DNA of 64,000 bases, taken from NCBI GenBank assembly GCA_964016885.1, contig OZ024740.1:26350001-26414000 (forward strand). Reading direction: 5' to 3'. The notes under the pieces were generated by a model. It was not told the DNA's origin, ran no database searches, and worked only from the letters and a program-made list of their open reading frames with translations. This document shows, piece by piece, positions 7,084 to 13,240 of the stretch. The stretch's first letter is position 1. Each line of letters begins with the position of its first letter. A program made the translations under genes and the position numbers. The DNA comes from Eledone cirrhosa. Lineage: Eukaryota.

Positions 7084-7172
<89 letters not shown>

Positions 7173-7213
7173 GAAAATAAAACAAAGAAGCCTTCAATAC
7201 ATCAAAAGTCTTT

Positions 7214-7259
7214 ATTAGCCAACAATGTTTCGTCCTATTAAGGACTCATCAGGGCAATC
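7214..7259 (-). ncRNA. Type I minimal hammerhead ribozyme motif (inverted pseudo-LTR copy)
   Basis: Reverse complement reads gattgcc CTGATGA gtcct taat aggac GAAAC att GTT ggctaat. Confidence 0.8.
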
Positions 7260-7773
7260 AAAACCACAAGAAGTACTATCGGCCAATACGAGCCGAAAAC
7301 TTCGAAGAATATGGAGTGTACATACACTAAAGTATTGGAAGATTATGGGTTTATGGGTAAAAATATATAATAAAAATCACTAAGGAGGTGGATAACATGT
7401 TGAACCATATTACAAATATAGTCCAAAGCAAAAAAAACCTAGAGCTAAACAAAGGTGGTTATATAGAGCGGGAATTATATATAATACAATATAATATAAT
7501 ATAATATACTTGTAACAATATTAAAATTAAAGATTAAAATTAAAAGGCACAATATACATATGTATATATGTACGCATCAATACACATATCCATCATTAAC
7601 AGCACAAATTAAACCTTATTAAGAGTTTAAATATAAATAAGCATAATAGGAATAAAAATAATATTAATACGCATATCTAATATACATGAAGTAATGAAAT
7701 GATTAAAAGTAACACATATAATATATAATAAACTATATAATTATATAATATATAAATATAATATAATAGATAA

Positions 7774-8096
7774 ATGTTATCCACCTCCTTGGTGATCTTT
7801 ATTATATATTTTTACCCATAATCTTCCAATACTTTAGTGTATGTACACTCATATTCTTCTGAGTTTTCGGCTTGTATTGGCCGATAGTACTTCTTGTGGT
7901 TTTGATTGCCCTGATGAGTCCTTAATAGGACGAAACTTTGTTGGCTAATAAAGACTTTTGATGTATTGAAGGCTTCTTTGTTTTATTTTCATAATTCTTC
8001 GGCTCTGTTTACTTACATTGAGCTATACCTTTTACTGTCATTTCTATAATACGAAGAGGGTGTTTAACTCCAACACGCTCCAGTATTTTAATTCTT
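7774..8096 (+). repeat. 5' pseudo-LTR of PLE-1
   Basis: Near-identical direct repeat of 12368-12699, with few substitutions and indels. Confidence 0.92.
7904..7949 (+). ncRNA. Type I minimal hammerhead ribozyme motif (5' pseudo-LTR)
   Basis: CTGATGA at 7911, stem II gtcct/aggac, GAAAC-ttt-GTT, stem I gcc/ggc extended by att/aat. The stem III loop differs by one base from the other two copies. Confidence 0.78.
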
Positions 8097-8166
8097 GTCA
8101 CCGCTCCCGATTGGTTGAGCTTCCTCCTATATACTGGTGTTTTGGCCTTTATATATATCTGACAGT

Positions 8167-10823
8167 ATGCTAACAAAGAGTTACCTGCCTTTATCTCTGA
8201 AGAATATTCCCACCCCCTCTAAGAATACTTACGAAAAACTATTGATTGCTAGTGTTAACTCCTTCGTAAAAAGGATTAGATGGCGTGCTTTCCACTATGA
8301 TATTAATAGGAATAGGAAGGACCCCAGGAATAGAACAGATTTTAATAACTATGGCTTCAAAACTTATAAGAGCCCACCACATAATGTTCTATTAGATAAT
8401 TTTGAAAGTGACTTACTCTCTCTTATCAAACATATTAAGTATAGGCCAAATAATAGACATAGAAATTATAATAAATTTGATAAGTTCCAGTCTAGACTTA
8501 AAAATATTGTTAAGGGTTTTAGTGCGAATAAGTCTATTCTTGTCTATGGATTACAGTGCTTACCGTGACTTTATTTATAAGGAGCTGCATAGAAATTATA
8601 AAAAGACTACGCTAGATAATTTGAACCATATCAATAGTGAGTGTCTTAAAATAGTCTCGGACCTCGGCCTTGATAAGTATACCCAGCCATATTACCCTAG
8701 AGAACCGAGATTCACTCTTAAGGATCATAAGGTAGACTTCATAAGTAACCCCTCTGTTAGACTCATCTGTCCTTGTAAGTCCGATATAGCCATAATCAGT
8801 AAAAAAATCCTTGACCTTATTATACCAGATGTTAGGGATAAAGTTAATTTTAACCTATGGGGGAACACTAAGGAAGTTATAGATTGGTTCTCTGGGATTA
8901 ATAAACTTGAATCTAATCAGTTTATCCAGTTCGATATTGATGCCTACTACACATCGATTTCACCCATCCTCCTCAATAAAGCCTTAATGTTGGCCATGAG
9001 AGTGTCCAGCCTTACACGATCACAGGTAGATATTATACTAGCAGCCCGTAGAACTATTATTAATTTTGAGGACACATTTTGGACCCGTAAAAACACGCCC
9101 AACAATTTCGACGTTACAATGGGTTCGAGTGATTCGGCCCAGGTAACTGATCTTGTTGGGTTGTTCCTCCTAAATGAACTATATGTTACCTTTCCGCAAC
9201 TTAATGGCGGACTATATCGTGATGATGCATTGTTTGTTATTAACTCTAGCACCAACAATGTCGAGCATAATAATAAGAAGCTTTAGAAGTTTTTTAAAAG
9301 CTATAACCTTTCGATCACGAAAGATAGAAACGATAGAGCGGTCAACTTTTTAGATGTGACTTTGGACTTGGTCACTAATAGTTTTAAACCCTTCCATAAG
9401 CCTAATGAAATACTTTCTTATGTTAGTCCCAATTCTAACCATCCCAAATCTATGATAAGCTCTATAATTAAGGGTGTATCTAATATGATTTCCACACTCT
9501 CTAAGGACGTAGGAACATTTAATGAACATGCGGAGTACTATAATAATGCCCTAGCTAATTCCGGTTACTCTAGTAAAATACATTATAATAATAGTAACCT
9601 TAGAAAGTCTCCGCTTACTTATAATAATAATAACATATCACATAACATGGCCATGAATGGGAGTAGGAAGCATAATAATCGTAGAAATTACATAGGTGTA
9701 TCTGAACCCATCCATAAGTTAACCCACCGGACTCGTAATAGGGAATATAATACCTCTAGGAAACAAGTCGAACCCTCTGAGCGCTCACTCATTGGTGATG
9801 ATTTTTCTAGATCTAATTCTAATAATGTTGTTTCTACTGATCCTATTATTGGCCCTAATCCTTTTGATGGGATTCCAGACGGCAGCAGATCTACTAGAGG
9901 TAGAAACAATAAGAGACTTAATGGAATTTTGGCTGATTCTAATAATGCGGTTTTAACTAATCCTTGTAATAACCCTAGTCTTAATAATGGGATATTAGAT
10001 AATGGTAGAGTCGGAAAGGATAAAAATAGAAGGAGACTAAATACTTATTTTAACCCGCCATATAATCAGGAAGTATTAACTAATATCCCTAGGTCTTTCT
10101 TTTCTATCTTAGAGAAAAATTTCCCCCCTTCTCATAAATACCATAGTATTTTTAATAAAAATGTTATTAAACTTTCATTCTCTACCACCCCTAATATTAG
10201 TTCTCATTTAGCTAGCACTAACAGTAGGAAAATTAGGGATGGATACTCCTCTCTACATACTACTAGTCTGAACAGATCTGTAAATGCCTTACCACCAGAG
10301 CAGACCTTATCTAATAGTAATCCTACGTGTAATGCATCACTACTTCAGCCAATCAATAGCACCCGGAAGTGTAACTGTAGAGTGAGTGCTAACTGCCCTT
10401 TAAACGGTAACTGCCTCTCTAAGAACATCGTCTATGCTTGAGTAGTTATAACTAATTCCTCTAATAGAACTTATATAGGCTCTACATCTAACACTTTTAA
10501 GACTAGGTTTAATTCTCATATCTCTAATTTCAAACATGTTAAGTTTAAGAATTCTACTTCTTTAGCACACTATATCTGGGATCTTAAGGGGGGCTAATAT
10601 ACAATATAGCCTTAATTGGCGTTTAGTAGCACGCTCTAATAACCTTTCTACACATACTAAATTTTGTAATCTCTGTATCCTCGAGGCACACTCTATAATT
10701 TTCTCTAGTGAATCCTTACTTAATAGAAAGTCTGAGATATTCTCTTCTTGCCCCCACGCTATTTCTAATTCTTACTTTTATTATAAACCTAAAGGTTCTA
10801 GTAGTATAAATTGTTTCCATTAG
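8167..10823 (+). pseudogene. Disrupted PLE ORF: reverse transcriptase plus C-terminal GIY-YIG endonuclease
   Basis: N-terminus SLKNIPTPS...KRIRWRAF; RT motifs QFDIDAYYTSI, TMGSSDSAQVTDLVG, GLYRDD, NFLDVTL; thumb SNHP; linker CNCRVSANCPLNGNCL; endonuclease IVY...YIGSTSNTFKTRFNSH...STSLAHYIWDLK...CNLCILE...LLNRKSEIFSSCPH. Broken by a frameshift near 8545, TAG at 9284, TGA at 10439 and a frameshift near 10590. Confidence 0.93.
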
Positions 10824-12367
10824 CTGATATATTCCATTACTTATTTTTTTAGTTTAGGTTCTTTTTGTTTACCACCATTATTATCATCATTATTATCATT
10901 GGTTTTTGACAACTTTTTATTCTAGCTCTCATATTCTTTTGGCTACTATACCATATCTATCTTCTTACACATTAAATTTTCACTATTAACACCTTATGAG
11001 TATATATCTGATTATATATTTTATATTATTTTATTTTATTTCATTTTATTTTATTTTATTTGGATTCTTCTTTGGATAACCCCACCCAACCCCTCCCTCC
11101 CCCCATGCACACATATACTTATTGTCAACCCCTTCACATATATTATGATTATATTTAATTCCCCCCTCTTTTATGCTCCTTTCTATTATATAATACAGTC
11201 TATTGATTATGATTTTATGCTCCTTTGTATCCTACATACATTTCTTTTTTTCTGTCCCTATTAGCCTACCATAATTCTGCTTAAGTCAGTTTTTTAGATA
11301 TCGTTATGTAAATGATAGTAGAATATTTCTTTCCTTTATATATATATTTATAGTGAAATATTAATGTTTAGGAATTTTGATTACTTAAACCATAGCTAAT
11401 ATTGTATTGCCTTATTAGGTATTTTAAATATTTTCAATATTAATTTATCAAATAGGGTTTTCGAGTCATTTATCTGGATTGTTTCCTAAGTTTTTACTTA
11501 ACTGCATGTGAGACCTAAGTAAATACTTTTGTTTTTGTTTTTTAATTTCCGGTTGATTTTATTTATTTATTTATTTATTAATACTACTGTGCATAGTATT
11601 TTCTGTCTGGCCCTTATTCACTCATCCACATATATGTCTGTTTACCAACCTTGTAATTATAAGTAATTATATATGATATTATGTTCATTATTTTATATTG
11701 AAGTTGTTATTGTACTATTGATCCTTATTACTTACTTACCGTTGATTTTATGTACCATTATGATATGTTAAATTTTATATATCATGTTTATATTTTTGTA
11801 CCATCATAATTTTGGGTATTGTACAATTTATATTTTTTTCTCACCTACTCTGTAACTATATGAATTGATTTGTTAACTTACACGCCATTATATATTATAT
11901 ATTATTATATTATTATTATAGTATTATTGTGACATCTATATTGTTTGTGTAAATTAACCGGAGATTATCTATTATATTATATTTATATATTATATAATTA
12001 TATAGTTTATTATATATTATATGTGTTACTTTTAATCATTTCATTACTTCATGTATATTAGATATGCGTATTATTATTATTTTTATTCCTATTATGCTTA
12101 TTTATATTTAAACTCTTAATAAGGTTTAATTTGTGCTGTTAATGATGGATATGTGTATTGATGTATATGTATATGTGCGTACGTGTGCGTACATATATAC
12201 ATATGTATATTGTGCCTTTTAATTTTAATCTTTAATTCTAATTTTAATATTGTTACAAGTATATTATATTATATTATATTGTATTATATATAATTCCGCT
12301 TTATATAACCACCTTTGTTTAGCTCTAGGTTTTTTTGCTTTGGACTATATTTGTAATATGGTTCAAC

Positions 12368-12699
12368 ATGTTATCCACCTCCTTAGTGATTTTTATTATA
12401 TATTTTTACCCATAAACCCATAATCTTCCAATACTTTAGTGTATGTACACTCCATATTCTTCGGAGTTTTCGGCTTGTATTGGCCGATAGTACTTCTTGT
12501 GGTTTTGATTGCCCTGATGAGTCCTTAATAGGACGAAACATTGTTGGCTAATAAAAACTTTTGATGTATTGAAGGCTTCTTTGTTTTATTTTCATAATTC
12601 TTCGGCTCTGTTTAATTACATTAAGCTATACCTTTTACTGTCATTTCTATAATACGAAGAGGGTGTTTAACTCCAACACGCTCCAGTATTTTAATCCTT
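12368..12699 (+). repeat. 3' pseudo-LTR of PLE-1
   Basis: Direct repeat of 7774-8096. It ends at a (TA)n tract. Confidence 0.92.
12507..12552 (+). ncRNA. Type I minimal hammerhead ribozyme motif (3' pseudo-LTR)
   Basis: gattgcc CTGATGA gtcct taat aggac GAAAC att GTT ggctaat. The catalytic core is intact and the predicted cleavage triplet is GUU. Confidence 0.82.
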
Positions 12700-12976
12700 A
12701 TATATATATATATATATATATTGAGTATATGTTGGTTGTTTACCGACACCTTAGTATGCGGATTGGAGCACTCGACGAAGTACTTCGGTTGGTTTGTTTA
12801 CTCCGGAGTAATGTAAAATAATTAAGTCAAATATGTAAAGTTTTGCTTCGTTTATTATAAATTATAGATATACTGCTATATATATATCGGTGACAGTCAT
12901 TATTGGTTGTGACGTCTTCGGGTAGTCTGAATTGCTGTGGTAGGGACGGGTACACATGTTGTTGACGGGTACATGG

Positions 12977-13240
12977 TGTTTTATAAATATTGACATATCC
13001 AGGAAGGAGATCTTAACGGTTCAAGTTTTTCCTGGAAAAAACTTGAACCGTTAAGATCTCCTTCTTGGATATGTCAATATTTACGAAACAAACTTTGTAT
13101 TTTATCTGATGAGAGCGTACCAAAGTTTTGGTACCCTTGACATATATATAATAGAATAAATATCGTCTCATACATATAGATTCCATTTATTAATATCATT
13201 GATATTATACTACAGAAAATCTGTCGAGTGCTTCGAATCA
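12977..13240 (+). mobile_element. Short PLE-like terminal remnant: 55-bp-arm hairpin followed by a degenerate hammerhead motif
   Basis: Near-perfect palindrome 12977-13090. At 13098-13158: tattttat CTGATGA gagcgtaccaaa-g-ttttggtaccctt GACA tatatata atagaata (8-bp stem I, long stem II, GAAA changed to GACA). Confidence 0.6.

What the first reader, a model, noticed from the sequence alone, without database searches (positions are those of the whole stretch)
7171..12699. Near-complete Penelope-like element carrying three copies of a hammerhead ribozyme in direct and inverted pseudo-LTRs
Seen: inverted 3'-end copy (7171-7773), pseudo-LTR (7774-8096), RT/GIY-YIG region, about 1.5 kb of AT-rich 3' sequence and a second pseudo-LTR (12368-12699), all inside a (TA)n tract. 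Each repeat holds CTGATGA-gtcct/aggac-GAAAC-(a/t)tt-GTT. Established: PLE pseudo-LTRs often carry minimal type I hammerheads, and tandem or inverted termini are typical of PLEs. Inference: the two sense ribozymes could cut out a unit-length RNA of about 4.6 kb (7942 to 12545). The near-palindromic ACAUUGU stem III suggests cleavage as a dimer. The GUU triplet is uncommon.
Basis: partly seen in the sequence, partly recalled or inferred. Interest (0 to 1): 0.8.

Follow-up and report, generated by a model that had tools for sequence, protein, structure and literature searches.

The report
Dead Hydra-type Penelope retrotransposon with hammerheads
This is a broken copy of a high-copy jumping gene of a known group (Hydra-clade Penelope-like elements) carrying three hammerhead ribozyme motifs that are predicted, not shown, to cut RNA; across the genome, copies with two outward-facing ends pair one long end with one short end, which likely means each insertion is started twice, once on each DNA strand.

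Summary
In detail: inverted 3' copy (7168/71-7773), 5' pseudo-LTR (7774-8096), RT/GIY-YIG body, 1.5-kb 3' UTR, 3' pseudo-LTR (12368-12699), three type I hammerhead motifs, all in (TA)n. It is a dead copy (four lesions) of a young family with at least 1,552 hammerhead copies, and it meets the Hydra-clade motifs (RWR, DKT, CxCX5C, CxxC/CxH, TA target). Palindromic stem III and GUU are normal there (GUU in 10 of 25 published families). A linear ribozyme-cut 7943-12545 RNA is not the template: insertions end 53 or 154 nt past the cut, and only 3 places genome-wide start at the cut (control position: 2). An uncut or circular RNA remains possible. The most useful result: free ends fall at 12596-98 (short) or 12699 (long), and two-ended insertions pair long with short in 22 of 25 (3 atypical, none alike), 16 of 16 in an independent set, and 14 of 14 scorable in a second Hydra family. 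This sharpens the published 'tail at one end' remark into a rule and favours coupled priming of both target strands. No RNA or cleavage data.

The parts
7089..7170 (.). left half of the (TA)n target
   Evidence: nearly all free ends of the family abut (TA)n
7168..7773 (-). inverted arm C = reverse complement of 11965-12598; its outer end is the SHORT end (exact base blurred by TA overlap, 7168-7171)
7208..7264 (-). hammerhead motif in the inverted arm (ACAUUGU stem III)
7774..8096 (+). 5' pseudo-LTR A: 3' end of a truncated upstream tandem unit, joined precisely 12699|8097 as in the other tandem copies
7899..7955 (+). hammerhead motif A; predicted cut after U7942; private A>T at 7937 weakens the stem III palindrome
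8097..12699 (+). one unit of the element, 4603 nt
8167..10823 (+). broken RT-EN ORF: 29-nt deletion near 8542, TAG 9284-9286, TGA 10439-10441, +1 base near 10588; an open 910-codon frame exists in copy L002
9570..10030 (+). Asn-rich, predicted-disordered insertion (P0001 about 499-645, 20% Asn); a second, shorter one at about P0001 716-755
10370..10823 (+). CxCX5C linker and GIY-YIG endonuclease with CxxC and CxH
10824..12367 (+). AT-rich 3' UTR (about 24% GC), fast-changing between subfamilies
12368..12699 (+). 3' pseudo-LTR B; ends at the LONG end
12502..12558 (+). hammerhead motif B: bulged helix I, 5-bp helix II, palindromic stem III, GUU, predicted cut after U12545
12599..12699 (+). 101-nt tail between the short and the long end
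12700..12721 (.). right half of the (TA)n target

Best explanation
This is a dead copy of a Hydra-clade Penelope-like retrotransposon whose long right arm and inverted left arm were likely made in one event, by priming reverse transcription from both cut strands of a (TA)n target at two fixed RNA sites 101 nt apart. Shown: clade motifs, the lesions, the TA target, two discrete ends, and long-with-short pairing. Inferred: (1) the RT-EN protein, probably as an asymmetric dimer on the RNA, nicks both strands of (TA)n; (2) one 3'-OH primes at 12699 and here ran 4.9 kb through the body and on into a second pseudo-LTR, while the other primed at 12598 and ran 0.6 kb; (3) the two cDNAs were joined head to head at 7773|7774; (4) the template ran through the hammerhead site, so it was uncut tandem RNA or a ligated circle, not a linear cut product; (5) the hammerhead plus tail is a selected cis element, likely a weak dimer- or protein-assisted ribozyme.
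For: Clade: P0001 from copy L002 has RWR 54, DKT 145, YRDD 376, CxCX5C 761, YIGST 795, CxxC 859, CxH 887, matching Craig 2021 section 11. Best structural matches are telomerase RTs (E 8.6e-10). Ends: 100 of 107 3' ends of segments lie at 12596-98 or 12699, with 4 more at 12695-98 (11 of the 12699 ends are tandem junctions). Pairing: 22 of 25 two-ended loci are long+short, 3 atypical, none alike; 16 of 16 in pairs picked only by opposed exact hammerhead 25-mers, p=3e-5 under independent 50:50; second family (44% identical over the RT part) 14 of 14 scorable, read. In 11 of 38 long+short loci the arm reaching farther 5' has the short end, so it could not have supplied the tail by folding back. 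Arms within a locus share rare variants, so one donor. Cut site: 1,552 exact matches spanning it versus 3 TA-adjacent starts at it and 2 places at a control position; 0 of 38 shorter arms end within 5 nt of it; 9 of 11 tandem 5' pieces run through it. Selection: lineage-shared variant sites 3 of 198 in hammerhead+tail versus 8 of 82 just upstream, Fisher p=0.003, with equal singleton rates. In vitro precedent: a Poseidon element cleaves and extends both strands, has two RT start sites bounding the tail, and needs protein for hammerhead cleavage (PMC11167929).
Against: No RNA, cleavage or protein data for this family. About half the copies show no inverted arm or stub, so the second priming often leaves no trace or does not happen. 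Three two-ended loci have an off-site end (L010, L014, L024). Seven of the 22 pairs came from loci selected for a long end. A loose motif recount gave 2 long+long calls among 20; both lacked any inverted element piece at the junction. Hammerheads score below Rfam gathering, the predicted minimum-energy fold is not the active one, and no compensatory change was found. The Poseidon precedent is another clade. Trimming of one end after priming both at the long site would give the same pattern.
Confidence: 0.62

Rival explanations
1. Both arms start at the long site (or derive from one cDNA), and the endonuclease trims exactly one arm to the short site while resolving the intermediate.
For: Gives the same strict pairing. 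Craig 2021 suggests the tail comes from EN-mediated resolution. The D. virilis EN needs the tail for recognition (as cited in PMC11167929).
Against: Two RT start sites bounding the tail were measured in vitro for a Poseidon element. Among body-selected loci with one captured end, 14 are short and 6 long, so short ends also occur without a visible partner.
Confidence: 0.2
2. Fold-back or self-priming (on cDNA or on an antisense RNA) makes the inverted arm, as proposed by Arkhipova 2013.
For: 2 of 38 pairs have near-equal inner ends (L127, L128), and 14 of 38 shorter arms stop at 12455-12490 near a small palindrome (paper).
Against: 36 of 38 pairs have unequal inner ends; in 11 the longer arm lacks the tail that the shorter arm carries. 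It does not predict strict long/short pairing.
Confidence: 0.1
3. One reading: the two sense hammerheads cut as a dimer, the 4.6-kb unit is ligated into a circle, and more-than-unit copying of the circle makes the pseudo-LTRs (compatible with the best explanation as to priming).
For: Precise 12699|8097 junctions. 5' versus 3' pseudo-LTR divergence equals inverted versus 3' divergence: 21/1645 vs 52/4618, p=0.36, and 37/5032 vs 17/2433, p=0.50, in the second family. Upstream pieces up to 3 kb. Proposed for PLEs by Cervera and de la Pena 2014.
Against: In this very copy B and C share an 8-nt duplication seen in no other fetched locus while A lacks it (79 non-duplicated forms), and A-B differs at 8/326 versus B-C 5/628, p=0.04 uncorrected, which hints at two different template pseudo-LTRs. 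In Poseidon, ribozyme mutants did not change insertion and uncut RNA was the main template.
Confidence: 0.35
4. The hammerhead-like sequence is kept only as part of the RT-binding signal, or as a passenger, and does not cleave.
For: Conservation extends equally over the 140 nt downstream of the ribozyme; active fold probability 4e-5; Craig 2021 raises parasitism.
Against: Full core retained here and in a second family with a different helix II, where the freely variable core position 7 takes G, T or A; canonical motifs across the clade.
Confidence: 0.2

Closest known systems
Hydra clade of Penelope-like elements (Craig et al. 2021, PMC8557442)
   Same: RW[K/R], DKT, CxCX5C, CxxC and CxH around E and N, C-terminal GIY-YIG, (TA)n target, type I hammerhead with palindromic stem III, tandem and inverted ends.
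   Different: Unit 4.6 kb versus 1.1-3.0 kb listed; ORF about 894 aa versus about 700 in most relatives because of two low-complexity inserts; 1.5-kb 3' UTR; tail 101 nt versus 30-40 bp described. Its hammerhead matches none of the 25 listed Hydra families, including Hydra-1_oBim.
Poseidon element PAc of Anolis (Frangieh et al. 2024, PMC11167929)
   Same: Two fixed end points bounding a tail, AT-rich target, hammerhead upstream of the end points.
   Different: Other clade; there the hammerhead and start sites overlap the ORF start, here they lie 70 or more nt upstream of it in a tandem; the main text does not relate the two sites to inverted arms.
Adineta vaga Pen1-Pen4 (Arkhipova et al. 2013, PMC3846280)
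   Same: Direct plus inverted pseudo-LTRs, tail optionally on one of them, Asn-rich ORF inserts, long spacer before the 3' pseudo-LTR.
   Different: Penelope/Poseidon group, low copy, 31-bp tail; explained there by self-priming.
Minimal PLE hammerheads (Cervera and de la Pena 2014, PMC4209133)
   Same: Type I, unstable palindromic helix III, predicted dimer.
   Different: This one keeps a 2-bp stem III with a 3-nt loop and an extended, bulged helix I.

Membership tests
Penelope-like element (EN+) | Single ORF with telomerase-like RT | tested here: met
   Copy L002 has one 910-codon frame; model pLDDT 72.6, top PDB matches telomerase RTs. Pfam found no RT family and the sequence search of PDB found nothing.
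Penelope-like element (EN+) | C-terminal GIY-YIG endonuclease | tested here: met
   PF01541 24.6 bits, cut-off 22.6, on the window piece; not reported on whole P0001.
Penelope-like element (EN+) | Pseudo-LTRs, tandem/inverted ends, optional tail | tested here: met
Hydra clade | RWK-type motif and DKT in place of DKG | tested here: met
   RWR 54 (R for K), DKT 145; DK[TS] in 120 of 120 homologues
Hydra clade | CxCX5C linker, not CX2-5CxxC | tested here: met
   CNCRVSANC 761; no CX2-5CxxC match
Hydra clade | CxxC and CxH around the conserved E and N; CCHH absent | tested here: met
   CNLC 859, CPH 887; absence of CCHH judged by eye, not against a reference alignment
Hydra clade | (TA)n insertion and canonical hammerhead | tested here: met
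Hydra clade | Generally short (<3 kb; descriptive, not diagnostic) | tested here: not met
   4603-nt unit
Hydra clade | Placement in an RT tree with named reference elements | not tested
   No named reference proteins were available as tool-held sequences
Neptune / Nematis | CX2-5CxxC linker and DKG | tested here: not met
Naiad / Chlamys | N-terminal EN, no canonical hammerhead, selenocysteine in some | tested here: not met
   EN is C-terminal; the in-frame TGA is private to this copy (sense codon in the others)
Type I hammerhead ribozyme | Core CUGANGA/GAAA, helices I-III, NUH | tested here: met
   Rfam 29-30 bits, below gathering 34
Type I hammerhead ribozyme | Covariation in the stems | tested here: inconclusive
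   Family too uniform; no double change at two helix II pairs genome-wide
Type I hammerhead ribozyme | Self-cleavage | not testable with these tools
   needs in vitro assay

The most novel reading that the evidence does not exclude
Penelope-like elements insert by obligately asymmetric double priming: one RNP cuts both target strands and always starts one cDNA at the long site and the other at the short site. The inverted pseudo-LTR is then the second primer's product, not a fold-back, and the tail length (101 nt here, about 90 nt in a second family) measures the spacing of two RT active sites on the RNA.
Probability: 0.5. Interest if true: 0.6.

Novelty: new member of a known kind. Interest (0 to 1): 0.33.

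Why it matters
The element, its hammerheads, the palindromic stem III and GUU are all expected for the Hydra clade, so the finding as written is ordinary. What adds value is the population evidence. How PLEs make inverted pseudo-LTRs and one-sided tails, and whether the ribozyme product is the template, are stated as open in the papers read. These families give a count-based rule (long always with short), argue against fold-back and against a linear cut template, and supply young families with open frames for an in vitro test.

Tried and rejected
Selenocysteine at the in-frame TGA: rejected, it is private to this copy. Neptune assignment, my first guess from recall: rejected on motifs. 5' ends at the ribozyme cut: no excess. 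Covariation in helix II: no double changes at the two pairs tested. Circle versus linear template by pseudo-LTR divergence: not discriminating. Motif-based end recount was noisy (checked), and an ungapped end walk failed on indels (redone). Short inverted stubs on one-armed copies: the stub scan found none beyond known arms; one about 8-nt short-end stub at L015 was seen by eye. Sequencing runs: no RNA holder listed; no reads were laid, so expression is untested. Earlier scan notes: none. Rfam miRNA-type hits are chance matches to palindromes, below gathering. Host not determined: a 3.0-Gb TA-rich animal genome; 'cephalopod-like' was my recalled guess used only to choose paper searches.
Full report
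Observation. The layout is as described. The inverted arm 7168/71-7773 copies 11965-12598, the 5' pseudo-LTR 7774-8096 copies 12368-12699, and the insertion sits between (TA)n tracts. Three hammerhead motifs are present; Rfam RF00163 scores them 29.1-29.7 bits, under the gathering score of 34. The repeat unit is 8097-12699 (4603 nt).

Identity. The window's genome is 3.0 Gb. First-look searches gave 2,748 candidates for the pseudo-LTR and 3,387 for the body, of which only 40 each were scored; an exact 25-mer across the ribozyme cut site occurs 1,552 times. I fetched 39 body-selected loci (L001-L039), 36 pseudo-LTR-selected loci (L040-L075) and later 16 opposed pairs (L116-L131). The window ORF has a 29-nt deletion, two private stops and a one-base insertion; 1 of the 39 body-selected loci (L002) has a full open frame. 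That protein has RWR, DKT, YRDD, CxCX5C, YIGST, CxxC and CxH, the features Craig et al. 2021 give for the Hydra clade (section 11). Its model (pLDDT 72.6) matches telomerase RTs best. Its 120 listed homologues are mostly about 700 aa and unnamed; the extra length is two predicted-disordered inserts. Clade membership rests on motifs; no tree with named references was built.

Ribozyme. Predicted helix I is 12502-12513 with 12546-12558 (one mismatch, one bulge), helix II is 5 bp, and stem III is 2 bp with pair probability 0.002 as a monomer; the palindrome pairs as a dimer at -2.3 kcal/mol, the 5' variant at +1.2. In Craig's File S2 palindromic stem III is the rule, and I count GUU in 10, GUA in 11 and GUC in 4 of 25 Hydra families. 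Among 103 hammerhead segments from 74 loci, 52 are identical, and the window's 5' variant is unique. Variant sites shared by at least 4 loci number 3 of 198 in ribozyme plus tail against 8 of 82 just upstream (p=0.003), while singletons are equally frequent; the one site inside the ribozyme (12507) is the helix I mismatch. Older subfamilies, down to about 75% identity over flanking element sequence, keep core and helix II but change the distal helix I strand (these loci were selected on the 3' 25-mer). No compensatory change was found. So selection on this RNA segment is supported, catalysis is not shown.

Template. Insertions end 53 or 154 nt downstream of the predicted cut, so a linear 7943-12545 RNA lacks both end points at its 3' end. 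If cut linear RNA were copied, pieces starting at 12546 should pile up: there are 3 TA-adjacent starts there and 2 places at a control position, 0 of 38 shorter arms end within 5 nt of it, and 9 of 11 tandem 5' pieces run through it (5 of 7 if the four pseudo-LTR-selected loci are left out). Uncut tandem RNA and a ligated circle both remain. Across loci the 5' pseudo-LTR is no further from the 3' one than the inverted arm is (p=0.36 and 0.50), which suits a circle or young donors. In the window copy, arms B and C share a unique 8-nt duplication that A lacks, and A is more diverged (p=0.04, uncorrected), which hints at an uncut tandem template; slippage loss or gene conversion could also explain it.

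End rule. Ends are discrete: short (12596-98, blurred by TA overlap) and long (12699), 101 nt apart. Of 25 loci with two outward-facing free ends among the first 76, 22 are long+short, 3 have one off-site end and none has two alike (7 of the 22 were selected for a long end). Sixteen further opposed pairs, taken from the first 100 listed matches without regard to end type, are all long+short (short ends aligned at 12591-98; p=3e-5). A second Hydra-like family in the same genome (39 loci examined, plus L095 of a third family left out) has ends about 90 nt apart; 17 loci have an inverted piece, 14 could be scored and all 14 are reciprocal (my reading; L086 and L097 have interrupted 3' ends, L094 was mis-oriented). 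A motif recount gave 11 of 11 there, and 18 of 20 in the first family with 2 long+long calls that one search showed to be false hits. In 11 of 38 pairs the arm reaching farther 5' lacks the tail that the shorter arm carries, which fold-back on one cDNA cannot give. About half the copies have no inverted arm.

Mechanism. Shown: anatomy, clade motifs, target, two end points, pairing, read-through of the cut site. From the literature: a Poseidon protein cleaves and extends both strands, starts at two sites bounding the tail, is predicted to be a dimer, and uses uncut RNA (PMC11167929). Inferred: one RNP primes both strands, one at each site, and the cDNAs are joined head to head. Trimming of one end by the endonuclease is the main rival and cannot be excluded from sequence.

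Prior art. [quoted passage not shown] I found no statement of strict pairing or of a two-primer origin of the inverted arm in searches, but the library lacks most subscription papers, and Evgen'ev and Arkhipova 2005, Pyatkov 2002/2004 and the Frangieh supplement were not seen; they may bear on this. What I read: PMC4209133 parts 1-2 of 4; PMC11167929 parts 1-2 of 4 and passages; PMC8557442 passages, section 11, a supplement search and supplement part 2 of 59; PMC3846280 passages and discussion; bioRxiv 10.64898/2026.07.22.740005 part 1 of 5; PMC13282606 and PMC7229834 passages.

Verdict. A new member of a known kind. The long/short pairing rule is the part worth following up. Interest 0.33.

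Noticed in passing
L076-L094, L096-L115 (e.g. L085:2450-4684): A second Hydra-like family with many open 738-761-codon frames, its own hammerhead (long helix II, AUAUAU palindrome, core position 7 variable), about 90-nt tail and the same long/short pairing; the protein search had 86,098 first-look candidates.
   Followed up: partly
L095:2536-4881: A third related family (782-codon frame); no hammerhead was found by the patterns tried.
   Followed up: no
L083: Two full open-frame copies of the second family head to head, with long and short outer ends.
   Followed up: partly
window 12455-12490: 14 of 38 shorter arms stop in this 36-nt stretch, next to a small palindrome just upstream of the hammerhead; a possible RT stop or joining hotspot.
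   Followed up: partly
L005, L006, L007: Three copies begin at 8097-8100, the unit junction, with no pseudo-LTR piece (L005 after a T run); L006's inverted arm stops at 12600, beside the short site. Possible real RNA 5' end or RT pause.
   Followed up: no
window 12976-13092: Near-perfect palindrome of about 115 nt downstream of the element, probably a small foldback element; gives the spurious miRNA hits.
   Followed up: no
window 35211-64000: 57-bp satellite array, at least 505 copies, 96% matches; also a 44-bp array at 219-1269.
   Followed up: no
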